From Eledone cirrhosa (lineage: Eukaryota), in NCBI GenBank assembly GCA_964016885.1, contig OZ024747.1, positions 78,430,001-78,494,000 on the forward strand: a stretch of DNA of 64,000 nucleotides, in the 5' to 3' direction. A program made the position numbers and the translations under genes. Under the pieces are notes generated by a model. That model ran no database searches. It was not told where the DNA came from and was given only the letters and a program-made list of their open reading frames with translations. Shown here in pieces: positions 7,308-34,618 of the stretch (its first letter is position 1; each line of letters starts with the position of its first letter).

Positions 7308-7444
7308 TGTATGTATGTATGTATGTATGTATGTATGTATGTATGTATGTATGTATGTATGTATGTATGTATGTATGTCCCTCACACACTCTCATACACA
7401 TATACACACATATGAACAAGACCAGGAAAAAATATATATATATG

Positions 7445-7505
<61 letters not shown>

Positions 7506-11408: not shown

Positions 11409-12315
11409 GTATATTTGGAGAGAGAGATCAGTATGAATGGGTTTAGGGAATGTAGAAGAAGGAAAGAAAAATCTTTATGGAGTCAGAGTAAAAAAAAAAA
11501 AAGAATACGTAGCAGTAAGTGATGGTGGGAGTAAGGAAAGTAAAAAAAATCTCTCAAGTTAGATTGAAATAAGAGATGTAGTAAGAGAAAGACTGAAGTA
11601 TATACAGGAGTGGGGATATTTCACCAACGACGACACAAGTGAAGCGGGGAAGGTAGAGATATTGTGATTGAAGAAACAGCCTAAGTAAGAGTAAAAAAGA
11701 AACAAAAGTATGTGAAAACGAAGTCTGAGTAGAAGACCAGTGAACAGTCGGTGAAAGAGAAATCGAGAGTGGAAGTGTGTCTGTGTGCTTGTGTGAAAAC
11801 GGATAATGGAGTTGTTTCATTCATCGATGTTGTATAGTTAAACGGCAGCCAGCCACATTAAGCTACTGGGGTGTGTTTTCTCTATATTATATATCTATAT
11901 ACGCACACAATCACTATTGTAAGCAGACACAAACTTTCGCATCCGAATGCGCACACACATATATATGTGTATTCGCCTTAGAATGTGTGTTATGTGTAAA
12001 ACTTTAGTATTTAGCTGCATACTATAATAACTTCGGTCTCTCAGCATACATAGATAACTGCAAACACTTATATATATATATATAACATATAGAAAGGTTG
12101 TTTGGTAGTTTAGGGGTCCTAAATACATCTCCATTATTACGAACAACTTGTACCTGGCGTCTTGTACCAAAATACGGAGGAACAAAAACAGATATTCTAA
12201 TCCACAGACTCGAGTTAACGGACTTACATTCCCGGCACTGGACAACTATGGTAAGTTTGTTGTTATCACCCTCTACCCCCTTCCCTCTCGACCTCTCTCT
12301 CTACCTCTCTCTCTA

Positions 12316-12366
<51 letters not shown>

Positions 12367-12845
12367 TTATCTATGTCCCCTTCTTTTGTGCCCCTGTGGC
12401 TAATAAAGAAATATATCTATCTATCTATCTATCTATCCATCCATCTATCTTCGAAGTTTTCTTTATCGTCCATTCTCGTTGTAAAAACTGTTGTCGATCA
12501 TCATCACCACCACCACCACCACCACCACTACCACCACCACCTTCTTCTTCTTCTTCTTCTTCTTCTTCTTCTTCTTCTTCTTCTTCTTCTTCTTCTTCTT
12601 CTTCTTCTTCTTCTTCTTCTTCTTCTTCTTCTTCTTCTTCTTTTCCAAGGGACTTGATGACTATGCAGGTGGCGGTGGAGATGATGTTTTTATTACTGTC
12701 CGATCGGTAATTTGAGTGAGACCTAGCTACTATCTCTAACTGAAAAAGGGGACCGTATAGAGGGTGGTGTGTTGGATGGGGGTGTTATTGCTATTTTTTT
12801 AGCCCCACACCAGGCCAGATTGTCCAGTCAAAGTCACTGGTCTCC

Positions 12846-12927
<82 letters not shown>

Positions 12928-12932
<5 letters not shown>

Positions 12933-13251
12933 TTCTATTTAAATTGTTGGGATACAACAAGCAAATATTTTTATAACTGATATAAAGCACTCAACAAATA
13001 TTTGGAGTAAAAATACGATATTAACAAATGGAAACTATATTTATAAAACCATATTTATTTCATTATATATATTTCAAGGACACCAAGTTAAATTATGGTG
13101 TGCTTTCATCGTATGTCAATATTTATTTATAAAACTGATCTATATTATATTTTATCTGATGAAAGCACACCATAATTTAACTTGGTGTCCTTGAAATATA
13201 TATAATGAAATAAATATGGTTTTATAAATATAGTTTCCATTTGTTAATATC

Positions 13252-13255
<4 letters not shown>
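12928..13255. mobile_element. Fold-back terminal fragment of a Penelope-like element related to the array element
   Basis: Aligns by eye with 25134-25346 of the array (ttgttggg.tacaac, ataactgatataaa.gcactc.acaaata, aaatggaaa.ctatatttataaaaccatatttatttcattatatatatttc). Perfect inverted arms at 13013-13110 and 13158-13255. (TA)n on both sides. Confidence 0.85.
13148..13212 (+). ncRNA. Minimal type I hammerhead ribozyme
   Basis: TATTTTAT-CTGATGA-AAGcACACCAtaatttaactTGGTGTcCTT-GAAA-TATATA-TA^-ATGAAATA. Stem II has a different sequence from the array copy but still pairs. Confidence 0.85.
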
Positions 13256-13311
<56 letters not shown>

Positions 13312-13521
13312 GTTATTCCGGGTTGAATCGGAGGTAACCACAGTAAGTAAGGTACTCAATACATTGCAGAGTATAAAAGTTTTAATATAGATGAGATTCT
13401 ACAGGACTAGAACTGTTTCATTCTTTAGAAATCATCAGGAATCTGGGATACCCAGATTCCTGATGATTTCTAAAGAATGAAACAGTTCTAGTCCTGTAGA
13501 ATCTCATCTATATTAAAACTT
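13312..13521. mobile_element. Fold-back hammerhead-bearing terminal fragment, second family
   Basis: Perfect 71-bp inverted arms 13377-13447 and 13451-13521 with an ATA loop, inside (TA)n. Related fragments at about 7510-7555 and 38920-39016. Confidence 0.75.
13454..13504 (+). ncRNA. Type I hammerhead ribozyme (mirror copy on the minus strand in the left arm)
   Basis: AGATTC-CTGATGA-tTTCtaaaGAAt-GAAA-CAGttctagtcCTG-TA^-GAATCT. Stems I and III pair fully; stem II is short. Confidence 0.8.
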
Positions 13522-13533
13522 ATATATATATAT

Positions 13534-13564
<31 letters not shown>

Positions 13565-13610
13565 TTAAAGGGAACAATGAATCAGTGTTGCATCATTTAC
13601 ATATTTAATT

Positions 13611-13702
13611 ACATATTACATATGTTTCACTGTCGATCAGCTCGAGGAACGATCGATTAATGTTCGATCCTGAATCTGGAATCGGAAGCTCATCAGATAT
13701 GT
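13611..13702 (-). ncRNA. Minimal hammerhead ribozyme, third family
   Basis: Minus strand: ACATAT-CTGATGA-(about 60-nt stem II region)-GAAA-CATATG-TA^-ATATGT, with a palindromic stem III. Lies in an insert of about 220 bp (13565-13780) between (TA)n and (TG)n. Confidence 0.7.
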
Positions 13703-13779
13703 GTTCTCACATGTAGACGCATCGAGTGCTCATCTTGGCATACCGCCTGCGAACGCAATTAATTTGCACCTTTAATACC

Positions 13780-13836
<57 letters not shown>

Positions 13837-14367
13837 ACACGCAAATGCCTGTTGAGTGTAGAAAGATTTTGTTGCTATTTCTAGCATGCCATGCAACTAC
13901 ATAGGTTTATTTATTGGTTCGTGGTTTCCCCGTGTAATATATTGTTTCTACTTTTGGCACAAGGCCAGCAATTACCCCAGTACATTACTGGTACTTTATT
14001 TTATCGACTCCGTAAGGATGAAAGACAAAGTGTAATATATTGCGGTATATTTGGTGTTAACACCTGTAGTGGTTGTTTCAGTAACCACTGTTGTTGTTGT
14101 TGTTGTTGACTTCCTGACATTATTATGTTGTTGTTTAATCTGTTGGTCAACCGTAATCAATGAGGTTCCAGCTATGACCATCACGTTCTATTTTGGACAC
14201 TGTATATCTAGGACTACATCATCAACTGTGTCCTCTAGACAGACACACACAATATCATTCACTTATATAAACACGACTTTCATTCACACAGATATCTCTC
14301 AGTCACATCGTTTCATTCACACACATACATACACAGAGACAGACACGCACACACAGACACACACACA

Positions 14368-14417
<50 letters not shown>

Positions 14418-14449
14418 GACAGACAGACACACACACATACACAGAGACA

Positions 14450-14539
<90 letters not shown>

Positions 14540-15209
14540 GACAGACAGACACAGACACCCGCACAGACACACACACACACACGCAGGCACACACGCAGGC
14601 ACACACACATAGACACACACACACAGACACATACAGACACAGACATACATGCACAGAGACAGACACACACAGACACGCACAGACACACACTCAGACACAC
14701 ACACACACAGACACATAGATACATACACAGACATACACACACAGACACACACAGACACATACACAGACACACACAGACACAGACACATACACACAGACAC
14801 ACACTCTCCCATTCTCTCCCTCTCTCTCACCCCCTCTCTCTCCCCCTATCTCTCTCTTCAATTGTTCCACTAAAGTTCTTAATTTAAATGCCACCAGTTT
14901 TTAATTTGTCCGTTCATATTGTATTTTCATAAACAACAGTCATATGCTTGGTTAATTCAATTACATGAGCCCCTTATATATAATATGTCGCCTTCTGTCA
15001 ATTTAACTCTTAACATCCTGTACCACATGAAACCACATTAGCAAGACATTCTTGAAAAGTACAAAACAATACTATTACTGTATTACGTTAAAATTACATT
15101 CTTGACTGTAAATTTTCACAACAATCTGTCAACTAGCAAAGTTAGCTTGTTCAGAAATGAATTCAGGTTTATAAACATTAACTTTAAAACGACAAATCTC
15201 AGTCCAGAA

Positions 15210-16620
15210 TAAACTGTATTGATCAAAATAAAAACCATTGGAATCTTCACATTTTTGCCAACAAGATACAAGTTTATTTATTCTGGTAACATAGAATTCT
15301 GAAGTTCTGGAGGCGATGAATTCTTCGAAAGTATTTCTGAAAGATTTTCAGTGCAAGAGTAGTGTGGTAGTCAGTTGGTAAAATATCCGTGATGAGGCAG
15401 AATTTCGTAGCCCAATTGGTTCAACTTTTGGAAGGTTGGTTGTACGATGAGTGATCAAGCACTGACATGCAAGGAGATTGGAACTTTTCTACTGACCAAT
15501 GCTGGACACATACAACTGCAATATTTGAAGCCTTTCATCAATTTCATGACAATACTTCTCTGCTGTGATTGTTTCACCAGGTTTCAGAAAGCTGTAGTGG
15601 ATTAATCTGGCTGCGGACCACCAACGAATCACCATGACCTTCTCTTGGGGCAACTTCGTATTTGGTAAGGGTTTAGGAGGAGTTCCACTCGTGCTGAATA
15701 TCATTGATTGTTGTATAGGGTCTACTTTGCATTTCATGTCACAATGCGATCAAGAAAAAGGTAAATTTTTTTCCGCAAAAGAAGCAAAGAGCAGACTTCA
15801 TAACCGCGATTTGTTTTTGGCTTTCGTTCAATTTATGTGGTACCCATTTTTCAATCTTTGACTTTCCAATTTGGTTCAAATGTTCAGAAACTGCTCCATT
15901 GTTTGCATCTAGCTTTCTTGCATCTCTCGAGCAGTTTTGTAAGGTTCTGTGGTAAATCTTTATAATTACCGTGTTGGAGTTGAAAATTACGTTTTTGCTA
16001 TCGTTTTTAGTGTATTTTGAACTTCAAAGACATCGGAAATTATTCCTCTTTTAATAAATTTGTTGTGGACCTTCTGAGTTTTTTTTCAGCCGACTCACTA
16101 TAAATATTGAAATTTATTTTTCCTATAGCTTCTGTGTTTTGAACGAATCTGGCCAACCCCTCCCAGCTAACTAAAAAACGAATAATTTCCGAAGGTTTTA
16201 AAGACCAGGTTTTCCTCCAAAGCAAGACAGATCTAACTGCCGCCACCAGTTAACTAAAAAAAAAAAAATGAATACTTTCCCACGGCTTTGAGATTTATTG
16301 AAAACTTCAAAGAATATAGGAAAAACAAATTTCAGCTCCAACGTGAGGTGGGTGTAATTGTAAAACTTTACCAGATTTTCTTCCACCAAAACCTTCAAAT
16401 TATCGTCGTTACTGACAGAAGGGTGACTGCCACCTTCCTTATCTTCAACAGTGAATTAACCACGACAAAATGTTTGAAACCAACCTTACATTGTGTTTTC
16501 ATTAACACATTTTGGGCCTCAAACTTCATTTATGTTTCTAGTATGTTTTGCAATCTGACAAAAATGCAATTTACATTCAAAATGAATTACATGGAAAGAA
16601 AGAGCATAAAATAAGCCTTA
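15210..16620 (-). pseudogene. Decayed mariner-type transposase remnant, apparently interrupted near 15955-16365
   Basis: PKPLPNTKLPQEKVMVIRWWSAARLIHYSFLKPGETITAEKYCHEIDE matches the mariner DD34D region. Many stops and frameshifts; boundaries approximate. Confidence 0.75.
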
Positions 16621-19279
16621 AAATCATACATAATTCTTCAAAAAATATTTTCTTAAATATATTTTGCTAAATCATTACATGTTGAAAGTTAAACCAATAT
16701 TTCTGTTGTTGTTGTTGTTATTATTGTTGTTCATCTCTAGTCAACTCATGACGTATGACATGTAATGGGTTGAAGGACTTGATACTATCTATAGATTCAT
16801 CACCTCAGATATACGCAGAGGCACACACACAAATACACACACACACATACAAACACAACCACACACACACACAAACACACACACACACCAGCATGTAGTG
16901 GTTTATTGTAGGGTTGTCAGTAAACCACAACCCACAGCTTCATTCCACCCTACCCTCCAACTTCACTCAATATATGACATTACACACAAAAGATTCTTTG
17001 TTTTCCTTATCATTTTTTTTAGTTAGTGAATAACAAAATTCAACATAAAAAAGTCTCATTCTTGCAGGTGTCTCAGATAAATCAAAGGCGGCGAGTTGGC
17101 AGCCATTATAACATCGAATAAAATGCTTCGTATAATTCATTCCGGCTTTCTCAGCACTGAGCTCAAATCTCGCCGAGGTCAACTTTGCCTTTTATCTTTT
17201 TGAGGTCGATAAATAACGTACCAGTCTAGTGCTAGGGTAGATTATTCCCCTATATCCTTTTCTCACTTCCTTTCTCACGTTATCTCTCTTTCTCTTTCGT
17301 TTGAAGAAATCGGTTGTGTTCAGACCTTGACAGGAGATAGACTCCGCCATGTTTAAATCTCTAAGACACGCTGTATATCACTACGGCGTTCCTGCCACTC
17401 AATCAGGAGTTAAGGTCCCATGACAGGGCAAAGGAATCAATGTTTTATATCAGTAATTCCCAAAGTGGGAACTAGGAAACTCAAGAATGGTACTGAAAGG
17501 GAAAAGGATGATGTCGAGGGGCAGGCGTGTTGGTTTTAGTGGTGTTCGTGGGGTTGGTTGTGGTGATGGTGGTGGGGTTGGTTGTGGTGATGGTGGTGGG
17601 GTTGGTTGTTTTGATGGTAGTGGGTTGCTATTAGGTAAGGAATGGTATGGGAGACAAGGGCCAAAGAATACAAATTAGTAGCAGCTCGTAAAACTGTCAC
17701 CTGCAGTCAATAAATGTGTTATTAAAATTTAATTTTTGATGTGTAATTTAAAGTGGAGAACACTGATGAAATATATTATTTTTAAAAGTAGGGAGTAGTT
17801 AAACATTTTCAGAAGCTCTGTTTTATATTAACTCTTAACATCCTATAAGGATTTTGCATAAAATGTCTTTAAAGAAAAAACCAGGTCAGTTTAAATAAGA
17901 TTTTTGCTAGTAGACATCGAACGTCTGCAGTATTAGAGGAAATAATTTAATATTTAATATGATAGTGTCATAGTGCAAAGGGAAATCTCTTCCACTTGGA
18001 AAAACATGAAAGTTTTCCCAGATGTTTTCATGTTAATGAAAGACATTTTATTGCCAAACGTTTTAAATAAAACCATTGAAGTAATTAAAAAAAAATGTTT
18101 CCTTAGCCTTGACGCAGCATGTTTGGATGGTTAAGTTCACTTCGAAAACATAAGGTTCCAAGGTTCGATCCCACTGTATGGAATCTTGAGCAAGTGTCAT
18201 TTACCATAGTTTCGAATTGACCCATGCCATATGAGGGAAATTGGGTAGGCAGAGAGTGTTTGGAAGCGCGTACGATGAACTGAACCTGCAATTGAAACAG
18301 TCAGTCTTATGACACACTTCGTCAGGCTTAATCTCCCCGAGAATTACATTAAAGGTACACGTGTCTATGGAATACTCAGCCACTTACATGTTAATTTCAG
18401 GAGCTGGCCATTCCGTGGCTCGAAGTTGACGATGGTATATTCAATGATCGTGGTTTCGTCTTTTATTCGCTTTGGCCTACAAGACGTAAACTTATTCCCA
18501 ATCCGCCCCCTATATAACCCCAGGTATATTGTCTAGGGTGCAGTGTGACAGTCTGAACATGTTGCAGTCTGGACATGTTGCAGTCTGGACATGTTGCAGT
18601 CTGGACATGTTTCCTAGATCAGCAGTGAATTGCAAATGCATAATAGTATGTGGAGATTTTACATAATGAAAGCTATACCCATTTTCACAAGAGAAGACAT
18701 CTCTCACCCACCCCAAAGTGTGTGGGAGATCTCCCAAGGGGACGGGGAGAATTGACAAGTCTGGAACAAATACTGCAAAGCATTCTATCCGACGTTCTAA
18801 CAACTCATTCGCAAGTATATCTGTTATAGAAACACGTGTCTATAAATTCCTTTCAACTAAACTGTATCCATTCAAATCTTTCTATATATATATATATATA
18901 TGTATGTATATATATACAAACTCTTGAGTGGCCATTATACGCCAGGTCACTCTGAGAGCTACTGGTAATATGCGACCTTTGAAGGATATATGTTTGAACA
19001 TCTGCAAGAGTAGAAACACTATACACATGAATAAATAAATAAATACAAGTAACTTCTCATATCCATTCCTACATACGTGCACATAACACGTGTATACTTA
19101 TGTATATTAATTTATTATTTTTTTCCTTTAAACAGCTCGTTGTCGTTGCTTGTTAATATTAAACATATGTTTGTATTTGAAGTCACGTCAGTGCAGAACG
19201 TAGTTGAAGTGTAGAAACATACATACATATGGATGCATATACATACATACATACATACATACATACATACATACATACA

Positions 19280-19315
<36 letters not shown>

Positions 19316-20600: not shown

Positions 20601-20634
<34 letters not shown>

Positions 20635-20849
20635 GTTTTTATTTTTGGCACAAGGTCAGCAATTACGAAGTACATTACTGGTACTTTATTTTATCTGACC
20701 CCGTAAAGGCAAAGTTAACCTCGGCGGGATTTGAACTCAGATCATAAAGGGACGTAACTCTATGCTTCAAAGCATGGTGTCCGACTCTCTACCGATACTG
20801 CCAATCCCCCTCCTCTCTCTCTCTCTATATCTATCTATCTATCTATCTA

Positions 20850-21193
<344 letters not shown>

Positions 21194-21231
21194 ATTACAT
21201 AAATGGAAAACTATATTTATAAAACCATATT

Positions 21232-21297
21232 TATTTCATTATATATATTTCGGGGATATCATATTAACAATATGCTATGCCTTCATCAGACAAAATA
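21232..21297 (-). ncRNA. Minimal type I hammerhead ribozyme, array copy 1
   Basis: Minus strand reads TATTTTGT-CTGATGA-aggcatagcatattgttaatatgatatcccc-GAAA-TATATA-TA^-ATGAAATA. Stem I is 8 bp with two G-U pairs, stem II is CATATT/AATATG plus ATA/TAT and GG/CC, stem III is the palindrome TATATA. Predicted cleavage between 21240 and 21239. Confidence 0.8.
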
Positions 21298-21663
21298 CAA
21301 TATAAACAGTTTTATAGATAAATATATTCGACATACCGTAATAAACATCAACTTCATTTGAAGAGGTTCACTCTAGCAGTGAAAATACAGAGAGAAAGAA
21401 AGAGAGAGAGAAAAGAGGGAAATAAGAAAGAAAGAAAGACGAAACGAAGAAAAGGAAGAAAAAGAAGAAAAAGAAGAAATGCATGGGACAAAATAGAGAG
21501 ATGGAAAAAATAGATAAAGCGAAGAGCTTCATGTAAAGAGACCGAAAGAGATATATATATATATAGAGAGAGAGAGGAAATAGAGATAGATACATATATA
21601 AATATAGATATAGAAAAATTAGGTAGTGGGAGGTCATTTTGAGTAAGTGTATCAATGATGCAT

Positions 21664-21698
<35 letters not shown>

Positions 21699-22848
21699 GC
21701 TCAAGTATTAATGTAAGGGAGATATAGAGAGATATAGAGAGATATAGAGAGAGAAAAATTTAAAAATAGCCAGACATATTCGAGGCGTAGAAAACCCTAT
21801 GTTTTAATGTATTAGTATTTATAAAACTTACACTATATTGTAAATATCAGTATTCCTGAATGAAACAAGTATTCACAATGCGTGAAAATTCATTATCTTA
21901 TGTTTAGTTTTTAAAAAAAAAATTCATATGTCTATGTGAATCCAACTGATTCACTCCGCAAATTCAAAGTTACCGGAAAACATTCTCAATGTGGTATAAA
22001 CATTTGAGCGTATTATTATTCTTGCGATTACTCTACAAGATTATCTATCAAGCAGAAATAGAGAGCAGATTTCAATATACTAATCGAAAATATATATTAT
22101 ATTATAAGCAGAGATAACAATAATAATGATAATAAGTAAAAATATATAAAAATATATAAAAATATAAAAATATAGAATAGAAAACTAAAAAAGAATATTA
22201 CGAAAGAATATTACATAATAAAAATATTGCATATTAAAAATACTACGTATTAAAAATATTACGTATTAAAACTTTACATATAAAAATATTAAAAATAAAA
22301 ATAAAATAAAATAAAAAATAAAATAAAAATATAAAAATATTATAGAATACTACAATACTAAAAGAATAAAAATAAAAATAAAAATAAAAATAAAAATAAA
22401 AATAAAAATAAAAATAAAAATAAAAATGAAAATAAAAAATAAAAAATAAAAAATAAAAAAGAAAATAAAAAATAAACCACAAAGAACAACCCTTCAAGGT
22501 TAATTGACAATATATTGCCAAGTTCACTACAAGACAAAGCCAAAAATTATCTATCAAATCACACCTAGCAAGGAATATCGCAAAAAAAAAGATTATGATG
22601 TCCAATAATGTCTACATATGTTCCTATATTTAATATATAAGTTTATCAAGTGTAAGGTTAATTCATAAAATTTGGAGCATCGGCTTTTAGGGTAGCTTAA
22701 TTTTTCATGAGGAATGTTTAGATAAAAAAAATAAATAAAAATAAAAATAAATACAATAAAATAAACAGTAAAAAGAGGGAATCAAAGATTTAGGAATCAA
22801 AAGATTTATCGGCTAGTTCTCATATAAATATAAATCAAACTAAATATA

Positions 22849-25062
22849 CTACATTTTAAATTTAAATTTATATTTAAACGTTGAGTTTAATCTATGTTTG
22901 CAACAACTGAATAAATTTGTCCGTAGGTTAAGGGAATTTTTAGATTTTAGTATAAAGAATATCTCCTCTGCGCAGAGGTCACATGTCTCAGAGGATGAAT
23001 TAAAAGGAATCCCTCTTGAGACTATATTCCAAGCCGTCGAATATCTAACGTTATCTAGCTTAAGTTGCCAGAGTACACCTGATAGTGCCGTTGAAGATTT
23101 TTTATTTGGATCTGTGAAAGAATTCTTGTGGTTATTATAGCGAAGTTTAAATTCCGTCGATGTGGAACCGACGTAGTTAAAAGAATTAGAGTCAGTATTA
23201 ACATTACAATTGTATACTATATTTTTAACTAAGCAGTTGTTATTTAACGGACATTTAGATCTATCTCTACAGTTACATTTGTTAACTTGTATATTATTTA
23301 TGCTATTATCAGTAGGTTTTAAGTTCCTATTATTTATTCTATTAATATTTTGTGCTAAATTTTTGGTGGATGAATAGGTTAATTTAATTGTATGCCTATT
23401 GAAGATTGAGTGGTACCTATGTGTTCTAGGGAAGCGATTATCAAGAGCTTTGAAAAATAATTTAGCGATGTGGGTTTTAATGTTTAGTGAGAAAGGGGGG
23501 GCAAACCAAATTATGTTCCTAGTTCTATTTCTTTTTTGTCCTTTGGAATTATTGTAATGCTTTCTATTATAGTTGTTAATGTTGTTGCCATAATTAAAAA
23601 AGTTGTTACTTTGTTTAGTTTGTTTATCATTATCTATGTACACAATCTTATCAGCATACCCTGCCCTAGCTAGTGCATCATTATAGTATTGGGCCTTTTC
23701 GTCAAAAATCTTTCTATTCGACGAGATCCTAGAGACACGCTTTTGGACTGAGTTTACTATAGTGTTTTTGACAGATCTGGGGTGGTTAGAGTTAAAGTTG
23801 ACATAGTTTAAGTTCTCATTCAACTTGTGAAAAGGATAGTGGAGACATGTGTTGAGATTTAATGTTATATCTAGGAAATTGACTATTCTATGGTTGTTCT
23901 CAATTTCTATTTTAAGGTTAAAGTAATTAAAAAATTTTGTAATTTGTTTACATTTTCTATTTAGTTCAGGGTTATTATTATTAATGAGTAAAAGCATGTC
24001 ATCCCTATATAAACCTCCGGTAGTACCAGGTATTTTCCTATGTAGCGAATTGATTAAAAATAAGCCCACAAGGTCAGTTACTTGAGCTGAGTCGGAAGAT
24101 CCCATAGTTATGTCAAAATTGCTATCTCTATCTGCTCTGGTCCATAATTTGTCATCAAATTCTATCAAAGTTTTCCTAGCCGATAATATAATATGCATTT
24201 CTTTGCTAGTTAGGTCCGTATGTTTGAATGCGTAATTTAGTGCCTTATTTAGTAGACTAGGGGTAATAGAAGAATAATAGTTAGCTATATCAAGTTGAAT
24301 AAACCTATTATTATTGTCATATTTAATTTGCCTAAACCACTCAACAACCTCTCCAGTTCCCTTCCACAAGCTCAGGTTAGATACATAATCCAAGTTCTTA
24401 ATTTGCAGTATCACCCTGTCAAGAATGTTTTTGCTTAATTTGCCCAGGTCCGATTTTGAAGGTGCGATTAATCTAACTGGCAGGTCAATCTCAAAATTCC
24501 TCTTGTGGTCCTTCATATTGATCTTCGGTTTCCTGGGCACGAAAGGTTGTGTTCTGTTCTCAATTTCCAACTCATGCATTATACAAGATGCGTCAACATT
24601 CATTTTCACAAGTTCGGTCTTATCTGCTACCTTGTATTTTTTCCTCAGCTCTTTCAGTATGAGGCCATTATACATGTCTTTCTGCACTCCATAGAGGTTG
24701 TTGGTCTTGTCAGATTTCACCAAGATCTTCTCAGTTTTCTCTAAGCTCTCGATGTTATCCTTAATGCCTTTCAGATATTCCTGGCCTTTAAAGTTTCTCT
24801 TGAATTTGACCCCTTGTATGATAGAAATTATATCGTTTTCAAAGTCAGATAAAAGTTTGTTAGGGGGTGGATTTCTTTTAGATTTGAAAACTTTGTTTAA
24901 GTCCGAGATATTTTCGTCTGCATTAAATTTATCAAAGTGGAATGCACGCCACCTGATTCTCCTTATAAAAGAGTCAGATTTATCTATTAGTTGTTTTACA
25001 AAGTCTTTGTTTCTAGGTAGAGGTATGTCTTTTAGAGAGGAAGTAATCTTAAAGAATTCCAT
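22849..25062 (-). CDS. Penelope-like element polyprotein: reverse transcriptase + C-terminal GIY-YIG endonuclease (Naiad-like), copy 1
   Basis: Uninterrupted 737-aa ORF. RT motifs FIQLDIANYYSSI, MGSSDSAQVTDLVG, GLYRDD, VNFLDITL. Cys linker KCNCRDRSKCPLNNNCL. GIY-YIG-type IVY...YVGSTSTEFKLRYNNH, then CDLCAEE and LN...CCKH. N-terminal SLKDIPLP...FIRRIRWRAFHF resembles the Naiad clade as I recall it. Confidence 0.93.
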   Translation of the reverse strand: MEFFKITSSLKDIPLPRNKDFVKQLIDKSDSFIRRIRWRAFHFDKFNADENISDLNKVFKSKRNPPPNKLLSDFENDIISIIQGVKFKRNFKGQEYLKGIKDNIESLEKTEKILVKSDKTNNLYGVQKDMYNGLILKELRKKYKVADKTELVKMNVDASCIMHELEIENRTQPFVPRKPKINMKDHKRNFEIDLPVRLIAPSKSDLGKLSKNILDRVILQIKNLDYVSNLSLWKGTGEVVEWFRQIKYDNNNRFIQLDIANYYSSITPSLLNKALNYAFKHTDLTSKEMHIILSARKTLIEFDDKLWTRADRDSNFDITMGSSDSAQVTDLVGLFLINSLHRKIPGTTGGLYRDDMLLLINNNNPELNRKCKQITKFFNYFNLKIEIENNHRIVNFLDITLNLNTCLHYPFHKLNENLNYVNFNSNHPRSVKNTIVNSVQKRVSRISSNRKIFDEKAQYYNDALARAGYADKIVYIDNDKQTKQSNNFFNYGNNINNYNRKHYNNSKGQKRNRTRNIIWFAPPFSLNIKTHIAKLFFKALDNRFPRTHRYHSIFNRHTIKLTYSSTKNLAQNINRINNRNLKPTDNSINNIQVNKCNCRDRSKCPLNNNCLVKNIVYNCNVNTDSNSFNYVGSTSTEFKLRYNNHKNSFTDPNKKSSTALSGVLWQLKLDNVRYSTAWNIVSRGIPFNSSSETCDLCAEEIFFILKSKNSLNLRTNLFSCCKHRLNSTFKYKFKFKM

Positions 25063-25241
25063 TTTTCAGTTATAATATAAAGCGCTCAACAGTATTGGAG
25101 CAAGATACATGTAAAGTTATATTTAAAATTGTTGGGTTACAACTAGTAAATATTTATAACTGATATAAAAGCACTCGACAAATACTTGGAGTATATTTAC
25201 AATATTACATAAATGGAAAACTATATTTATAAAACCATATT

Positions 25242-25307
25242 TATTTCATTATATATATTTCGGGGATATCATATTAACAATATGCTATGCCTTCATCAGA
25301 CAAAATA
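25242..25307 (-). ncRNA. Minimal hammerhead ribozyme, array copy 2
   Basis: Identical to 21232-21297; predicted cleavage site about 190 nt upstream of the ATG at 25062. Confidence 0.8.
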
Positions 25308-25673
25308 CAATATAAACAGTTTTATAGATAAATATATTCGACATACCGTAATAAACATCAACTTCATTTGAAGAGGTTCACTCTAGCAGTGAAAATACAG
25401 AGAGAAAGAAAGAGAGAGAGAAAAGAGGGAAATAAGAAAGAAAGAAAGACGAAACGAAGAAAAGGAAGAAAAAGAAGAAAAAGAAGAAATGCATGGGACA
25501 AAATAGAGAGATGGAAAAAATAGATAAAGCGAAGAGCTTCATGTAAAGAGACCGAAAGAGATATATATATATATAGAGAGAGAGAGGAAATAGAGATAGA
25601 TACATATATAAATATAGATATAGAAAAATTAGGTAGTGGGAGGTCATTTTGAGTAAGTGTATCAATGATGCAT

Positions 25674-25708
<35 letters not shown>

Positions 25709-26859
25709 GCTCAAGTATTAATGTAAGGGAGATATAGAGAGATATAGAGAGATATAGAGAGAGAAAAATTTAAAAATAGCCAGACATATTCGAGGCGTAG
25801 AAAACCCTATGTTTTAATGTATTAGTATTTATAAAACTTACACTATATTGTAAATATCAGTATTCCTGAATGAAACAAGTATTCACAATGCGTGAAAATT
25901 CATTATCTTATGTTTAGTTTTTAAAAAAAAAAATTCATATGTCTATGTGAATCCAACTGATTCACTCCGCAAATTCAAAGTTACCGGAAAACATTCTCAA
26001 TGTGGTATAAACATTTGAGCGTATTATTATTCTTGCGATTACTCTACAAGATTATCTATCAAGCAGAAATAGAGAGCAGATTTCAATATACTAATCGAAA
26101 ATATATATTATATTATAAGCAGAGATAACAATAATAATGATAATAAGTAAAAATATATAAAAATATATAAAAATATAAAAATATAGAATAGAAAACTAAA
26201 AAAGAATATTACGAAAGAATATTACATAATAAAAATATTGCATATTAAAAATACTACGTATTAAAAATATTACGTATTAAAACTTTACATATAAAAATAT
26301 TAAAAATAAAAATAAAATAAAATAAAAAATAAAATAAAAATATAAAAATATTATAGAATACTACAATACTAAAAGAATAAAAATAAAAATAAAAATAAAA
26401 ATAAAAATAAAAATAAAAATAAAAATAAAAATAAAAATGAAAATAAAAAATAAAAAATAAAAAATAAAAAAGAAAATAAAAAATAAACCACAAAGAACAA
26501 CCCTTCAAGGTTAATTGACAATATATTGCCAAGTTCACTACAAGACAAAGCCAAAAATTATCTATCAAATCACACCTAGCAAGGAATATCGCAAAAAAAA
26601 AGATTATGATGTCCAATAATGTCTACATATGTTCCTATATTTAATATATAAGTTTATCAAGTGTAAGGTTAATTCATAAAATTTGGAGCATCGGCTTTTA
26701 GGGTAGCTTAATTTTTCATGAGGAATGTTTAGATAAAAAAAATAAATAAAAATAAAAATAAATACAATAAAATAAACAGTAAAAAGAGGGAATCAAAGAT
26801 TTAGGAATCAAAAGATTTATCGGCTAGTTCTCATATAAATATAAATCAAACTAAATATA

Positions 26860-29073
26860 CTACATTTTAAATTTAAATTTATATTTAAACGTTGAGTTTA
26901 ATCTATGTTTGCAACAACTGAATAAATTTGTCCGTAGGTTAAGGGAATTTTTAGATTTTAGTATAAAGAATATCTCCTCTGCGCAGAGGTCACATGTCTC
27001 AGAGGATGAATTAAAAGGAATCCCTCTTGAGACTATATTCCAAGCCGTCGAATATCTAACGTTATCTAGCTTAAGTTGCCAGAGTACACCTGATAGTGCC
27101 GTTGAAGATTTTTTATTTGGATCTGTGAAAGAATTCTTGTGGTTATTATAGCGAAGTTTAAATTCCGTCGATGTGGAACCGACGTAGTTAAAAGAATTAG
27201 AGTCAGTATTAACATTACAATTGTATACTATATTTTTAACTAAGCAGTTGTTATTTAACGGACATTTAGATCTATCTCTACAGTTACATTTGTTAACTTG
27301 TATATTATTTATGCTATTATCAGTAGGTTTTAAGTTCCTATTATTTATTCTATTAATATTTTGTGCTAAATTTTTGGTGGATGAATAGGTTAATTTAATT
27401 GTATGCCTATTGAAGATTGAGTGGTACCTATGTGTTCTAGGGAAGCGATTATCAAGAGCTTTGAAAAATAATTTAGCGATGTGGGTTTTAATGTTTAGTG
27501 AGAAAGGGGGGGCAAACCAAATTATGTTCCTAGTTCTATTTCTTTTTTGTCCTTTGGAATTATTGTAATGCTTTCTATTATAGTTGTTAATGTTGTTGCC
27601 ATAATTAAAAAAGTTGTTACTTTGTTTAGTTTGTTTATCATTATCTATGTACACAATCTTATCAGCATACCCTGCCCTAGCTAGTGCATCATTATAGTAT
27701 TGGGCCTTTTCGTCAAAAATCTTTCTATTCGACGAGATCCTAGAGACACGCTTTTGGACTGAGTTTACTATAGTGTTTTTGACAGATCTGGGGTGGTTAG
27801 AGTTAAAGTTGACATAGTTTAAGTTCTCATTCAACTTGTGAAAAGGATAGTGGAGACATGTGTTGAGATTTAATGTTATATCTAGGAAATTGACTATTCT
27901 ATGGTTGTTCTCAATTTCTATTTTAAGGTTAAAGTAATTAAAAAATTTTGTAATTTGTTTACATTTTCTATTTAGTTCAGGGTTATTATTATTAATGAGT
28001 AAAAGCATGTCATCCCTATATAAACCTCCGGTAGTACCAGGTATTTTCCTATGTAGCGAATTGATTAAAAATAAGCCCACAAGGTCAGTTACTTGAGCTG
28101 AGTCGGAAGATCCCATAGTTATGTCAAAATTGCTATCTCTATCTGCTCTGGTCCATAATTTGTCATCAAATTCTATCAAAGTTTTCCTAGCCGATAATAT
28201 AATATGCATTTCTTTGCTAGTTAGGTCCGTATGTTTGAATGCGTAATTTAGTGCCTTATTTAGTAGACTAGGGGTAATAGAAGAATAATAGTTAGCTATA
28301 TCAAGTTGAATAAACCTATTATTATTGTCATATTTAATTTGCCTAAACCACTCAACAACCTCTCCAGTTCCCTTCCACAAGCTCAGGTTAGATACATAAT
28401 CCAAGTTCTTAATTTGCAGTATCACCCTGTCAAGAATGTTTTTGCTTAATTTGCCCAGGTCCGATTTTGAAGGTGCGATTAATCTAACTGGCAGGTCAAT
28501 CTCAAAATTCCTCTTGTGGTCCTTCATATTGATCTTCGGTTTCCTGGGCACGAAAGGTTGTGTTCTGTTCTCAATTTCCAACTCATGCATTATACAAGAT
28601 GCGTCAACATTCATTTTCACAAGTTCGGTCTTATCTGCTACCTTGTATTTTTTCCTCAGCTCTTTCAGTATGAGGCCATTATACATGTCTTTCTGCACTC
28701 CATAGAGGTTGTTGGTCTTGTCAGATTTCACCAAGATCTTCTCAGTTTTCTCTAAGCTCTCGATGTTATCCTTAATGCCTTTCAGATATTCCTGGCCTTT
28801 AAAGTTTCTCTTGAATTTGACCCCTTGTATGATAGAAATTATATCGTTTTCAAAGTCAGATAAAAGTTTGTTAGGGGGTGGATTTCTTTTAGATTTGAAA
28901 ACTTTGTTTAAGTCCGAGATATTTTCGTCTGCATTAAATTTATCAAAGTGGAATGCACGCCACCTGATTCTCCTTATAAAAGAGTCAGATTTATCTATTA
29001 GTTGTTTTACAAAGTCTTTGTTTCTAGGTAGAGGTATGTCTTTTAGAGAGGAAGTAATCTTAAAGAATTCCAT
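26860..29073 (-). CDS. Penelope-like element RT + GIY-YIG polyprotein, copy 2
   Basis: Translation identical to copy 1 in the ORF track. Confidence 0.93.
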   Translation of the reverse strand: MEFFKITSSLKDIPLPRNKDFVKQLIDKSDSFIRRIRWRAFHFDKFNADENISDLNKVFKSKRNPPPNKLLSDFENDIISIIQGVKFKRNFKGQEYLKGIKDNIESLEKTEKILVKSDKTNNLYGVQKDMYNGLILKELRKKYKVADKTELVKMNVDASCIMHELEIENRTQPFVPRKPKINMKDHKRNFEIDLPVRLIAPSKSDLGKLSKNILDRVILQIKNLDYVSNLSLWKGTGEVVEWFRQIKYDNNNRFIQLDIANYYSSITPSLLNKALNYAFKHTDLTSKEMHIILSARKTLIEFDDKLWTRADRDSNFDITMGSSDSAQVTDLVGLFLINSLHRKIPGTTGGLYRDDMLLLINNNNPELNRKCKQITKFFNYFNLKIEIENNHRIVNFLDITLNLNTCLHYPFHKLNENLNYVNFNSNHPRSVKNTIVNSVQKRVSRISSNRKIFDEKAQYYNDALARAGYADKIVYIDNDKQTKQSNNFFNYGNNINNYNRKHYNNSKGQKRNRTRNIIWFAPPFSLNIKTHIAKLFFKALDNRFPRTHRYHSIFNRHTIKLTYSSTKNLAQNINRINNRNLKPTDNSINNIQVNKCNCRDRSKCPLNNNCLVKNIVYNCNVNTDSNSFNYVGSTSTEFKLRYNNHKNSFTDPNKKSSTALSGVLWQLKLDNVRYSTAWNIVSRGIPFNSSSETCDLCAEEIFFILKSKNSLNLRTNLFSCCKHRLNSTFKYKFKFKM

Positions 29074-29252
29074 TTTTCAGTTATAATATAAAGCGCTCAA
29101 CAGTATTGGAGCAAGATACATGTAAAGTTATATTTAAAATTGTTGGGTTACAACTAGTAAATATTTATAACTGATATAAAAGCACTCGACAAATACTTGG
29201 AGTATATTTACAATATTACATAAATGGAAAACTATATTTATAAAACCATATT

Positions 29253-29318
29253 TATTTCATTATATATATTTCGGGGATATCATATTAACAATATGCTATG
29301 CCTTCATCAGACAAAATA
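29253..29318 (-). ncRNA. Minimal hammerhead ribozyme, array copy 3
   Basis: Identical to 21232-21297. Confidence 0.8.
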
Positions 29319-29684
29319 CAATATAAACAGTTTTATAGATAAATATATTCGACATACCGTAATAAACATCAACTTCATTTGAAGAGGTTCACTCTAGCAG
29401 TGAAAATACAGAGAGAAAGAAAGAGAGAGAGAAAAGAGGGAAATAAGAAAGAAAGAAAGACGAAACGAAGAAAAGGAAGAAAAAGAAGAAAAAGAAGAAA
29501 TGCATGGGACAAAATAGAGAGATGGAAAAAATAGATAAAGCGAAGAGCTTCATGTAAAGAGACCGAAAGAGATATATATATATATAGAGAGAGAGAGGAA
29601 ATAGAGATAGATACATATATAAATATAGATATAGAAAAATTAGGTAGTGGGAGGTCATTTTGAGTAAGTGTATCAATGATGCAT

Positions 29685-29719
<35 letters not shown>

Positions 29720-30870
29720 GCTCAAGTATTAATGTAAGGGAGATATAGAGAGATATAGAGAGATATAGAGAGAGAAAAATTTAAAAATAGCCAGACATAT
29801 TCGAGGCGTAGAAAACCCTATGTTTTAATGTATTAGTATTTATAAAACTTACACTATATTGTAAATATCAGTATTCCTGAATGAAACAAGTATTCACAAT
29901 GCGTGAAAATTCATTATCTTATGTTTAGTTTTTAAAAAAAAAAATTCATATGTCTATGTGAATCCAACTGATTCACTCCGCAAATTCAAAGTTACCGGAA
30001 AACATTCTCAATGTGGTATAAACATTTGAGCGTATTATTATTCTTGCGATTACTCTACAAGATTATCTATCAAGCAGAAATAGAGAGCAGATTTCAATAT
30101 ACTAATCGAAAATATATATTATATTATAAGCAGAGATAACAATAATAATGATAATAAGTAAAAATATATAAAAATATATAAAAATATAAAAATATAGAAT
30201 AGAAAACTAAAAAAGAATATTACGAAAGAATATTACATAATAAAAATATTGCATATTAAAAATACTACGTATTAAAAATATTACGTATTAAAACTTTACA
30301 TATAAAAATATTAAAAATAAAAATAAAATAAAATAAAAAATAAAATAAAAATATAAAAATATTATAGAATACTACAATACTAAAAGAATAAAAATAAAAA
30401 TAAAAATAAAAATAAAAATAAAAATAAAAATAAAAATAAAAATAAAAATGAAAATAAAAAATAAAAAATAAAAAATAAAAAAGAAAATAAAAAATAAACC
30501 ACAAAGAACAACCCTTCAAGGTTAATTGACAATATATTGCCAAGTTCACTACAAGACAAAGCCAAAAATTATCTATCAAATCACACCTAGCAAGGAATAT
30601 CGCAAAAAAAAAGATTATGATGTCCAATAATGTCTACATATGTTCCTATATTTAATATATAAGTTTATCAAGTGTAAGGTTAATTCATAAAATTTGGAGC
30701 ATCGGCTTTTAGGGTAGCTTAATTTTTCATGAGGAATGTTTAGATAAAAAAAATAAATAAAAATAAAAATAAATACAATAAAATAAACAGTAAAAAGAGG
30801 GAATCAAAGATTTAGGAATCAAAAGATTTATCGGCTAGTTCTCATATAAATATAAATCAAACTAAATATA

Positions 30871-33084
30871 CTACATTTTAAATTTAAATTTATATTTAAA
30901 CGTTGAGTTTAATCTATGTTTGCAACAACTGAATAAATTTGTCCGTAGGTTAAGGGAATTTTTAGATTTTAGTATAAAGAATATCTCCTCTGCGCAGAGG
31001 TCACATGTCTCAGAGGATGAATTAAAAGGAATCCCTCTTGAGACTATATTCCAAGCCGTCGAATATCTAACGTTATCTAGCTTAAGTTGCCAGAGTACAC
31101 CTGATAGTGCCGTTGAAGATTTTTTATTTGGATCTGTGAAAGAATTCTTGTGGTTATTATAGCGAAGTTTAAATTCCGTCGATGTGGAACCGACGTAGTT
31201 AAAAGAATTAGAGTCAGTATTAACATTACAATTGTATACTATATTTTTAACTAAGCAGTTGTTATTTAACGGACATTTAGATCTATCTCTACAGTTACAT
31301 TTGTTAACTTGTATATTATTTATGCTATTATCAGTAGGTTTTAAGTTCCTATTATTTATTCTATTAATATTTTGTGCTAAATTTTTGGTGGATGAATAGG
31401 TTAATTTAATTGTATGCCTATTGAAGATTGAGTGGTACCTATGTGTTCTAGGGAAGCGATTATCAAGAGCTTTGAAAAATAATTTAGCGATGTGGGTTTT
31501 AATGTTTAGTGAGAAAGGGGGGGCAAACCAAATTATGTTCCTAGTTCTATTTCTTTTTTGTCCTTTGGAATTATTGTAATGCTTTCTATTATAGTTGTTA
31601 ATGTTGTTGCCATAATTAAAAAAGTTGTTACTTTGTTTAGTTTGTTTATCATTATCTATGTACACAATCTTATCAGCATACCCTGCCCTAGCTAGTGCAT
31701 CATTATAGTATTGGGCCTTTTCGTCAAAAATCTTTCTATTCGACGAGATCCTAGAGACACGCTTTTGGACTGAGTTTACTATAGTGTTTTTGACAGATCT
31801 GGGGTGGTTAGAGTTAAAGTTGACATAGTTTAAGTTCTCATTCAACTTGTGAAAAGGATAGTGGAGACATGTGTTGAGATTTAATGTTATATCTAGGAAA
31901 TTGACTATTCTATGGTTGTTCTCAATTTCTATTTTAAGGTTAAAGTAATTAAAAAATTTTGTAATTTGTTTACATTTTCTATTTAGTTCAGGGTTATTAT
32001 TATTAATGAGTAAAAGCATGTCATCCCTATATAAACCTCCGGTAGTACCAGGTATTTTCCTATGTAGCGAATTGATTAAAAATAAGCCCACAAGGTCAGT
32101 TACTTGAGCTGAGTCGGAAGATCCCATAGTTATGTCAAAATTGCTATCTCTATCTGCTCTGGTCCATAATTTGTCATCAAATTCTATCAAAGTTTTCCTA
32201 GCCGATAATATAATATGCATTTCTTTGCTAGTTAGGTCCGTATGTTTGAATGCGTAATTTAGTGCCTTATTTAGTAGACTAGGGGTAATAGAAGAATAAT
32301 AGTTAGCTATATCAAGTTGAATAAACCTATTATTATTGTCATATTTAATTTGCCTAAACCACTCAACAACCTCTCCAGTTCCCTTCCACAAGCTCAGGTT
32401 AGATACATAATCCAAGTTCTTAATTTGCAGTATCACCCTGTCAAGAATGTTTTTGCTTAATTTGCCCAGGTCCGATTTTGAAGGTGCGATTAATCTAACT
32501 GGCAGGTCAATCTCAAAATTCCTCTTGTGGTCCTTCATATTGATCTTCGGTTTCCTGGGCACGAAAGGTTGTGTTCTGTTCTCAATTTCCAACTCATGCA
32601 TTATACAAGATGCGTCAACATTCATTTTCACAAGTTCGGTCTTATCTGCTACCTTGTATTTTTTCCTCAGCTCTTTCAGTATGAGGCCATTATACATGTC
32701 TTTCTGCACTCCATAGAGGTTGTTGGTCTTGTCAGATTTCACCAAGATCTTCTCAGTTTTCTCTAAGCTCTCGATGTTATCCTTAATGCCTTTCAGATAT
32801 TCCTGGCCTTTAAAGTTTCTCTTGAATTTGACCCCTTGTATGATAGAAATTATATCGTTTTCAAAGTCAGATAAAAGTTTGTTAGGGGGTGGATTTCTTT
32901 TAGATTTGAAAACTTTGTTTAAGTCCGAGATATTTTCGTCTGCATTAAATTTATCAAAGTGGAATGCACGCCACCTGATTCTCCTTATAAAAGAGTCAGA
33001 TTTATCTATTAGTTGTTTTACAAAGTCTTTGTTTCTAGGTAGAGGTATGTCTTTTAGAGAGGAAGTAATCTTAAAGAATTCCAT
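30871..33084 (-). CDS. Penelope-like element RT + GIY-YIG polyprotein, copy 3
   Basis: Translation identical to copy 1 in the ORF track. Confidence 0.93.
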   Translation of the reverse strand: MEFFKITSSLKDIPLPRNKDFVKQLIDKSDSFIRRIRWRAFHFDKFNADENISDLNKVFKSKRNPPPNKLLSDFENDIISIIQGVKFKRNFKGQEYLKGIKDNIESLEKTEKILVKSDKTNNLYGVQKDMYNGLILKELRKKYKVADKTELVKMNVDASCIMHELEIENRTQPFVPRKPKINMKDHKRNFEIDLPVRLIAPSKSDLGKLSKNILDRVILQIKNLDYVSNLSLWKGTGEVVEWFRQIKYDNNNRFIQLDIANYYSSITPSLLNKALNYAFKHTDLTSKEMHIILSARKTLIEFDDKLWTRADRDSNFDITMGSSDSAQVTDLVGLFLINSLHRKIPGTTGGLYRDDMLLLINNNNPELNRKCKQITKFFNYFNLKIEIENNHRIVNFLDITLNLNTCLHYPFHKLNENLNYVNFNSNHPRSVKNTIVNSVQKRVSRISSNRKIFDEKAQYYNDALARAGYADKIVYIDNDKQTKQSNNFFNYGNNINNYNRKHYNNSKGQKRNRTRNIIWFAPPFSLNIKTHIAKLFFKALDNRFPRTHRYHSIFNRHTIKLTYSSTKNLAQNINRINNRNLKPTDNSINNIQVNKCNCRDRSKCPLNNNCLVKNIVYNCNVNTDSNSFNYVGSTSTEFKLRYNNHKNSFTDPNKKSSTALSGVLWQLKLDNVRYSTAWNIVSRGIPFNSSSETCDLCAEEIFFILKSKNSLNLRTNLFSCCKHRLNSTFKYKFKFKM

Positions 33085-33263
33085 TTTTCAGTTATAATAT
33101 AAAGCGCTCAACAGTATTGGAGCAAGATACATGTAAAGTTATATTTAAAATTGTTGGGTTACAACTAGTAAATATTTATAACTGATATAAAAGCACTCGA
33201 CAAATACTTGGAGTATATTTACAATATTACATAAATGGAAAACTATATTTATAAAACCATATT

Positions 33264-33329
33264 TATTTCATTATATATATTTCGGGGATATCATATTAAC
33301 AATATGCTATGCCTTCATCAGACAAAATA
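33264..33329 (-). ncRNA. Minimal hammerhead ribozyme, array copy 4
   Basis: Identical to 21232-21297. Confidence 0.8.
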
Positions 33330-33695
33330 CAATATAAACAGTTTTATAGATAAATATATTCGACATACCGTAATAAACATCAACTTCATTTGAAGAGGTT
33401 CACTCTAGCAGTGAAAATACAGAGAGAAAGAAAGAGAGAGAGAAAAGAGGGAAATAAGAAAGAAAGAAAGACGAAACGAAGAAAAGGAAGAAAAAGAAGA
33501 AAAAGAAGAAATGCATGGGACAAAATAGAGAGATGGAAAAAATAGATAAAGCGAAGAGCTTCATGTAAAGAGACCGAAAGAGATATATATATATATAGAG
33601 AGAGAGAGGAAATAGAGATAGATACATATATAAATATAGATATAGAAAAATTAGGTAGTGGGAGGTCATTTTGAGTAAGTGTATCAATGATGCAT

Positions 33696-33730
<35 letters not shown>

Positions 33731-34618
33731 GCTCAAGTATTAATGTAAGGGAGATATAGAGAGATATAGAGAGATATAGAGAGAGAAAAATTTAAAAATA
33801 GCCAGACATATTCGAGGCGTAGAAAACCCTATGTTTTAATGTATTAGTATTTATAAAACTTACACTATATTGTAAATATCAGTATTCCTGAATGAAACAA
33901 GTATTCACAATGCGTGAAAATTCATTATCTTATGTTTAGTTTTTAAAAAAAAAAAATTCATATGTCTATGTGAATCCAACTGATTCACTCCGCAAATTCA
34001 AAGTTACCGGAAAACATTCTCAATGTGGTATAAACATTTGAGCGTATTATTATTCTTGCGATTACTCTACAAGATTATCTATCAAGCAGAAATAGAGAGC
34101 AGATTTCAATATACTAATCGAAAATATATATTATATTATAAGCAGAGATAACAATAATAATGATAATAAGTAAAAATATATAAAAATATATAAAAATATA
34201 AAAATATAGAATAGAAAACTAAAAAAGAATATTACGAAAGAATATTACATAATAAAAATATTGCATATTAAAAATACTACGTATTAAAAATATTACGTAT
34301 TAAAACTTTACATATAAAAATATTAAAAATAAAAATAAAATAAAATAAAAAATAAAATAAAAATATAAAAATATTATAGAATACTACAATACTAAAAGAA
34401 TAAAAATAAAAATAAAAATAAAAATAAAAATAAAAATAAATATATATATATATATATACTAGTGGACCTGTGTCGTCAATAATTACGGCGATAGTATTGT
34501 ACATCGCATAAGAGAAACTATATAGTTCATGTTGATCACTGCACTGACACGTGGAAGTGAGCCAAGAGAATACAAATCAAAACAACAAAAGATATTTCAA
34601 TAATTTTTATGTCTAGGA

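What the first reader, a model, noticed from the sequence alone, without database searches (positions are those of the whole stretch)
13148..13212. Natural structural covariation supports the hammerhead call
Compared with the array motif (21232-21297), CTGATGA, GAAA, TATATA and the TA cleavage site are unchanged. Stem II is replaced (ACACCA/TGGTGT versus CATATT/AATATG) yet still pairs and keeps a C-C mismatch at the fourth position. A stem I G-U pair becomes A-U. Structure conserved over sequence implies selection on the ribozyme.
Basis: seen in the sequence. Interest (0 to 1): 0.7.

Follow-up and report, generated by a model that had tools for sequence, protein, structure and literature searches.

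The report
Hammerhead ribozyme of an octopod retroelement
This is a hammerhead-type RNA motif in the end repeat of an animal jumping gene whose class is already known to carry one; paired base changes among its relatives keep the fold intact, so it likely cuts itself as a dimer, but this particular copy is predicted to be locked up by its own mirror-image neighbour, and it is largely ordinary.

Summary
13148-13212 is a standard type I hammerhead in the inverted arm of a 327-bp (TA)n-flanked stub. The stub is a sister subfamily (about 85% identical) of the 4-kb tandem Hydra-clade Penelope-like element at 21191-34456. In register it is homologous (20 of 31 identical), with two true compensatory changes (G-C/A-U, U-A/C-G). 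Two copies alone are marginal (52 of 500 shuffles; P 0.02-0.06). Public reads add the weight: both sides of three stem II pairs change by complementary transitions, and the loop takes transversions and deletions. N7 is the core position that varies across many copies. Stem I pair 2.2-1.2 occurs as A-U, G-U and G-C. 31 of 77 related Hydra loci carry a hammerhead, mostly at the same place. Rfam finds none of them. Hydra hammerheads are published, including one from Octopus. The one oddity is an AUA site with an all-AU (UA)4 palindrome, where 45 of 45 relatives have C-G. Cleavage is untested, and this copy should be trapped in a 98-bp duplex.

The parts
13142..13217 (+).
13142..13155 (+). Stem I 5' strand: 8 bp + bulge at 13147 + 5 bp
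   Evidence: (13 pairs, 100% of cells paired)
13156..13162 (+). Core C3-A9 (CUGAUGA); N7 = 13160
   Evidence: N7 read as U, G, A, C
13163..13192 (+). Stem II (10 rungs, C.C at rung 4) with 10-nt loop 13173-13182
13193..13204 (+). G12-A15.1, self-complementary AUAUAUAU (13196-13203), U16.1-A17; predicted cut after 13204 (AUA triplet)
   Evidence: cut site placed by hammerhead numbering
13205..13217 (+). Stem I 3' strand
13111..13255 (+). Inverted arm of the stub; holds the intact motif
12929..13110 (-). Second arm of the stub (pLTR plus longer tail); its hammerhead is 5'-truncated (C3, U4 and the stem I 5' strand lost); 13013-13110 is a perfect 98-nt inverted repeat of 13158-13255
12848..12928 (.). 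(TA)n target tract, left
13253..13310 (.). (TA)n target tract, right
21191..34456 (-). 3.3 head-to-tail units (4010-4011 bp) of the autonomous Hydra-clade Penelope-like element, (TA)n on both sides
22849..25065 (-). RT + C-terminal GIY-YIG ORF (737 aa from Met); identical copies at 26860-29076 and 30871-33087
21240..21289 (-). Array hammerhead core, copy 1; identical copies at 25250-25299, 29261-29310, 33272-33321

Best explanation
This is a type I hammerhead motif in the terminal repeat (pLTR) of a Hydra-clade Penelope-like retroelement, kept by selection that likely acted on the RNA of active master elements, where it would cut slowly after AUA as a double hammerhead, likely with help from the element's own protein. 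Shown: the core, three stems, position 188 nt before the ORF, and structure-keeping variation across the family. Inferred: the 8-nt palindrome is too short for a monomeric stem III, so two copies pair through it, either successive pLTRs of one tandem transcript or two RNAs, and cut the tandem precursor into units. The copy at 13148 is the inverted arm of a young, 5'-truncated insertion into (TA)n. In a read-through transcript it is predicted to be buried in a 98-bp duplex with the other arm, so it is likely an inert record of its subfamily's sequence. Step odds: hammerhead homologue shaped by selection 0.93; cleaves in vitro as a dimer or with protein 0.65; this genomic copy has no function 0.85.
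For: Core and stems beyond chance. ORF carries the Hydra diagnostics (against PMC8557442 section 11). 31 of 77 related loci have a strict type I motif against 0-1 in 20 shuffles. Core-only matches in the sense UTR zones have stems in 42 of 50 cases, against 12 of 46 elsewhere. In RAD reads (X15 first-mate-minus counts) both sides of three rungs change by complementary transitions: 13164 A>G 192 of 1349 with 13191 T>C 318 of 2229; 13167 A>G 833 of 1332 with 13188 T>C 918 of 2092; 13168 C>T 694 of 1330 with 13187 G>A 1130 of 2086. Listed variants are 1 of 10 transversions in the stem against 10 of 15 in the loop (Fisher P 0.012). On the array reference N7 takes all four letters, and X1 shows no other core change at 1% or more. 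Stem I 2.2-1.2 is A-U, G-U and, in organism D, G-C. The palindrome-centre variant keeps a U.G pair. The double-hammerhead fold scores -27.6 kcal/mol against -21.8 for two monomers and -28.1 for the best dimer. Metazoan PLE hammerheads cut weakly as dimers (PMC4209133); an anole PLE hammerhead cuts only with its protein (PMC11167929).
Against: No cleavage data. Two-copy covariation is marginal. The read tables give frequencies, not linked haplotypes; RAD depth is weighted by a few loci; 10 of 50 variant rows were hidden. A C3>G variant (146 of 1511 plus reads in X17, 10 starts) and one core change in a single X7 contig exist. The family is an outlier: a model built from 45 relatives scores it poorly (14 bits, partial; array 8.1 bits, E 8.8). 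All 45 have C15.2-G16.2, and only 1 of 45 has a weaker palindrome duplex than -3.2 kcal/mol (median -7.5). AUA was the slowest of four triplets tested in ELVd (PMC1636495). The monomer's lowest-energy fold is an inactive rod in which the stem I 5' strand pairs with GAAAUAU (-10.9 against -7.5). The array variant's double hammerhead (-17.4) is 8.5 kcal/mol above its best dimer.
Confidence: 0.78

Rival explanations
1. Decayed or non-catalytic relic: the fold is kept as a binding or folding signal for the element's protein, and cleavage is negligible.
For: AUA, A10.1-U11.1 (A.C in the array), weak all-AU stems I and III. The competing rod fold also tolerates the common changes, and G2.2 with C11.1 in the array even pairs in it. 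Conservation runs 19 nt past the ribozyme. Cleavage was dispensable for insertion in vitro in the anole element.
Against: Variation is confined to N7 and the palindrome centre, which is what catalysis and dimer pairing permit. U-G to U-A at 13207 (1497 of 2963 minus reads in X15) and G-C at 2.2-1.2 favour stem I over the rod. AUA occurs in active natural hammerheads.
Confidence: 0.17
2. The paired changes come from DNA-level hairpin correction (template switching in a quasi-palindrome) or chance transitions, not from RNA selection.
For: Stem II is an inverted repeat in DNA. Most stem changes are transitions, which often keep pairs anyway. Two-copy P is 0.05-0.06 when pairing is modelled.
Against: C.C at rung 4 is never corrected in any listed row. 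Stem I strands, about 50 nt apart, also covary. The catalytic core is spared. The same fold sits at the same place in unrelated sequences across the clade.
Confidence: 0.04
3. The 13148 copy has been kept by the host as a working ribozyme.
For: It is the better-folding of the two variants.
Against: Its arms are 98 of 98 identical, so the insertion is young. All hammerhead stems have pairing probability 0.000 in the whole-stub transcript.
Confidence: 0.01

Closest known systems
Hydra-clade PLE hammerheads (Craig et al. 2021, PMC8557442; File S2, including Hydra-1_oBim from Octopus bimaculoides)
   Same: Type I order, CUGANGA/GAAA core, short palindromic stem III, in the pLTR of an RT + C-terminal GIY-YIG element with DKT, CxCX5C, CxxC and CxH motifs; (TA)n targets; tandem and inverted copies.
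   Different: All 26 Hydra rows of File S2 have C15.2-G16.2; this family has U-A and an all-AU palindrome. Its stem II (30-31 nt with a fixed C.C) and stem I (13 bp) are longer. The unit is 4 kb against generally under 3 kb. By eye, a different family from Hydra-1_oBim.
Minimal or palindromic-helix-III hammerheads of metazoan PLEs (Cervera and De la Pena 2014, PMC4209133)
   Same: Long helix II, palindromic 15.2-16.2 and loop 3, dimer-dependent design, high within-genome variability with covariations, pairs on opposite strands 100-700 bp apart.
   Different: Lacks the typical G10.1-C11.1 in the 13148 copy; the array can reach it only by bulging the A after A9.
PAc Poseidon hammerhead of Anolis (PMC11167929)
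   Same: pLTR hammerhead near the ORF start; insertions end at two sites downstream of the cut (here 49-51 and 133 nt).
   Different: Different clade; the PAc cut lies inside the ORF, here 188 nt before it.
Rfam Hammerhead_1 (RF00163, accession recalled)
   Same: Type I topology and core.
   Different: No match at any threshold tried.

Membership tests
Type I hammerhead ribozyme | Core C3UGANGA9 ... G12AAA15.1 ... U16.1 H17 in type I order | tested here: met
Type I hammerhead ribozyme | Stems I and II can form next to the core | tested here: met
   Stem I 8 of 8, stem II 9 of 10 rungs; 0 of 100 shuffles as good
Type I hammerhead ribozyme | Stem III with A15.1-U16.1, stable alone or palindromic for a dimer | tested here: met
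   8-nt palindrome, duplex only -3.2 kcal/mol; dimer fold within 0.5 kcal/mol of the best
Type I hammerhead ribozyme | Purine-pyrimidine pair at 10.1-11.1 | tested here: met
   A-U at 13163/13192; A.C in the window's array, U11.1 in 69% of X1 depth
Type I hammerhead ribozyme | Covariation of stems with core conservation | tested here: inconclusive
   Two copies not significant; read tables supportive but unlinked; clade alignment strong but selected for pairing
Type I hammerhead ribozyme | Self-cleavage after H17 | not testable with these tools
   needs bench assay
Rfam hammerhead models | Score at or above the gathering threshold | tested here: not met
   also 0 hits in 20 relative loci
Hydra-clade Penelope-like element | Single ORF, RT with C-terminal GIY-YIG | tested here: met
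   YRDD at 352-355, Y617/Y630/G632/R641 invariant in 34 aligned proteins; Pfam itself gave 0 families
Hydra-clade Penelope-like element | RWK, DKT, CxCX5C linker, CxxC and CxH around E and N, no CCHH | tested here: met
   RWR (RWK in the consensus), DKT 118-120, C596/C598/C604, C694/C697, E700, N712, C721/H723
Hydra-clade Penelope-like element | (TA)n insertion, tandem and inverted pLTR structure, hammerhead in the pLTR | tested here: met
Hydra-clade Penelope-like element | Placement in the Hydra clade on an RT tree with reference families | not tested
   reference proteins seen only in the paper's supplement; compared by eye
Typical Hydra-PLE hammerhead profile | C15.2-G16.2 (GUH site) and fit to a clade model | tested here: not met
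   U-A here against C-G in 45 of 45 and 26 of 26 rows; model R1 gives 14 and 8.1 bits

The most novel reading that the evidence does not exclude
This lineage rewrote the otherwise fixed C-G stem III of Hydra hammerheads into the element's own target microsatellite, so the cut leaves an RNA ending in (UA)4 that can anneal to nicked (TA)n DNA or to a second copy, coupling ribozyme cleavage to target recognition. Not excluded, but insertion ends lie 49-51 and 133 nt past the cut, and cleavage was not needed for insertion in the anole element.
Probability: 0.07. Interest if true: 0.6.

Novelty: new member of a known kind. Interest (0 to 1): 0.27.

Why it matters
The role of hammerheads in Penelope-like elements is still open. 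This family offers natural variants with graded predicted stability, an intact young ORF in tandem, and an unusual AUA site with a (UA)4 dimer interface, so it is a convenient test system for dimer or protein-assisted cleavage. The existence of the motif itself is expected from published work on the Hydra clade.

Tried and rejected
Rfam: no hammerhead family in the window at gathering score, in 12000-22000 at E up to 10 (38 other hits), or in 13130-13230 (5 weak unrelated hits). Pfam on the ORF: 0 families. No whole genome is held, so no copy-level alignment or R-scape-type test was possible. Family-specific pattern in genome contigs and viral contigs: 0 matches each. The 59 viral matches to a core pattern were chance and served as a control. 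No RNA holder listed. Summed contig depth is far higher over the pLTR than over the ORF, but the tool says this is no copy number, so it is only a hint that short stubs dominate. Naiad/Chlamys assignment rejected: the endonuclease is C-terminal. A scrambled (non-circularly permuted) hammerhead, as noted elsewhere in this genome, rejected for this motif: the strand order is standard. 'Stem II replaced' rejected by alignment. ARAGORN found no tRNA gene. Look-ups of earlier findings near this place, by words and by sequence were empty.

Full report
Setting. The window is microsatellite-rich animal DNA. The best named protein relatives come from Argonauta hians, so the host is likely an octopod. 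No assembly is held. At 21191-34456 lie 3.3 head-to-tail units of 4010-4011 bp, each full unit with a 737-aa ORF on the minus strand. An alignment of this ORF with 33 of the 120 listed relatives shows YRDD, DKT, CxCX5C, a C-terminal GIY-YIG-type core, CxxC and CxH. These are the diagnostics of the Hydra clade of Penelope-like elements (PMC8557442, section 11 read whole). Each unit has a hammerhead core whose predicted cut lies 188 nt before the next ORF start.

What 13148-13212 is. It lies in a 327-bp stub (12929-13255) between two (TA)n tracts. The stub matches the array's terminal repeat at about 85% and has two arms. The minus-strand arm is truncated inside the core. The plus-strand arm is inverted and holds the intact motif. 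The shared 98 nt are identical, so the insertion is young. Inverted 5'-truncated copies are a described PLE structure (PMC8557442 passages). Stem I has 8 bp, a bulge and 5 bp; stem II has 9 of 10 rungs paired; stem III is an 8-nt palindrome; the site is AUA. A stem-demanding scan finds 8 hits in the window against 0.03 in 100 shuffles.

The invariant core, the G-U to A-U change and the C.C rung are correct. 'Replaced' is not. The hexamers cited are rungs 5-10 and 9-14. In register, 20 of 31 columns are identical. Rung 2 goes G-C to A-U and rung 6 U-A to C-G (compensatory). Rung 8 goes G.A to C-G and rung 1 A.C to A-U. With only two haplotypes (three rows aligned) this is marginal: 52 of 500 shuffles reach it. 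P is 0.022 for three double-hit rungs and 0.05-0.06 for two pair-keeping ones. The identical stretch also runs past the ribozyme, to 13236.

Family-wide variation. Of 17 listed runs I laid 7. On the array reference (contigs of organisms A-D), N7 is read as G (32% of X1 depth), A (12%) and C (X7). No other core letter changes at 1% or more in X1; one X7 contig changes A13. U11.1 replaces C in 69% of X1 depth and in 604 of 607 in X4, so the array's mismatch is a minority state. Position 1.2 becomes C opposite an unchanged G2.2 in X7. On the 13148 reference (three RAD runs, 25,166 to 32,835 reads laid, plus X1), both sides of rungs 2, 5 and 6 change by complementary transitions at similar levels (X15 minus reads: 14% and 14%, 63% and 44%, 52% and 54%; X16 and X17 alike). 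Rungs 3, 4, 7, 9 and 10 show no listed change. The loop takes 10 transversions in 15 rows plus deletions, against 1 in 10 for the stem (P 0.012; some loop rows are array-type letters). Limits: no linked haplotypes, uneven RAD depth, 10 of 50 rows hidden, one C3>G cluster in X17, and organism A may not be the window's species.

Clade-wide test. A metagenome scan kept 77 loci (the best of 363 confirmed). 31 of 77 carry a strict type I motif, most on the sense strand just before or after the ORF; shuffles give 0-1. Choosing by core alone, 42 of 50 sense-UTR matches have stems, against 12 of 46 elsewhere. I aligned 45 motifs: 38 of those 42 (4 second motifs from loci already represented dropped) and 7 of those 12. 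12 of 14 pairs change on both sides, score 0.707 against 0.197 in shuffles. This set was chosen for pairing, so the figure is inflated. Rfam misses the window's motif and 20 of 20 relative loci tested.

Results against an efficient ribozyme. A model from those 45 fits the finding poorly (14 bits, partial; array 8.1 bits) while it finds two other motifs next door. All 45, and all 26 Hydra rows of the published File S2 (supplement part 2 read), have C15.2-G16.2; this family has U-A. Its palindrome duplex is among the weakest. AUA is natural but was the slowest of four triplets in ELVd (PMC1636495, abstract and section 12). The monomer prefers an inactive rod. As a dimer the 13148 variant comes within 0.5 kcal/mol of the best fold; the array variant does not.

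Mechanism. Shown: anatomy, position and structure-keeping variation. Inferred: two copies pair through the palindrome, exchange stem I strands and cut after A17, trimming a tandem transcript. Precedent: weak dimer cleavage of metazoan PLE hammerheads (PMC4209133, parts 1-2 of 4 read), and protein-assisted cleavage that is dispensable for insertion in vitro (PMC11167929, passages and second part of the main text). Insertion ends lie 49-51 and 133 nt past the cut, like the two-site tail of that paper, so the cut does not define them. In a transcript of the whole stub all hammerhead stems have probability 0.000, so this copy is likely inert.

Novelty. Hydra hammerheads are in print, including an Octopus bimaculoides family with a different motif. 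In four searches I saw no description of this family or of an all-AU palindrome. The held library lacks most subscription journals. A 2017 paper on dimeric PLE hammerheads is recalled only. Of bioRxiv 10.64898/2026.07.22.740005 I read part 1 of 5, and its supplements were not seen. Verdict: a real, selected motif; a new member of a known kind with one unusual feature; interest 0.27.

Noticed in passing
window 13372-13526: A second inverted-repeat stub with two intact hammerheads of typical Hydra type, at 13394-13444 (-) and 13454-13504 (+), 31.8 bits with model R1; partial relative at 38924-39016.
   Followed up: partly
window 13611-13702 (-): A third hammerhead-like motif with a 61-nt stem II region and a CATATG palindrome (18.9 bits). 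Three unrelated ribozyme-bearing inserts sit within 900 bp of (TA)n tracts.
   Followed up: partly
window 21191-34456: Units 2 and 3 of the array are identical over 4011 bp and unit 1 differs by one base in length: very young, or an assembly effect.
   Followed up: partly
window 13193-13236: 44 nt identical between subfamilies, running 19 nt past stem I; possibly a protein-binding or reverse-transcription start signal.
   Followed up: no
window 5060-5191, 8830-9029, 20626-20812, 35591-35780, 36828-37025, 38285-38463, 41330-41983 and others: A dispersed repeat of about 190 bp in a dozen copies, SINE-like by eye; ARAGORN finds no tRNA.
   Followed up: no
window 1966-4920, 6886-7515: ORF fragments that look by eye like pieces of non-LTR retrotransposons.
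   Followed up: no
window 43225-50080, 50534-51692, 55020-55927: Satellite arrays with periods of 24, 42 and 66 bp.
   Followed up: no
L060-L136: 14 of 42 Hydra-clade hammerheads have U.U at 10.1-11.1 before a short stem II; Rfam detected none in 20 loci tested.
   Followed up: partly
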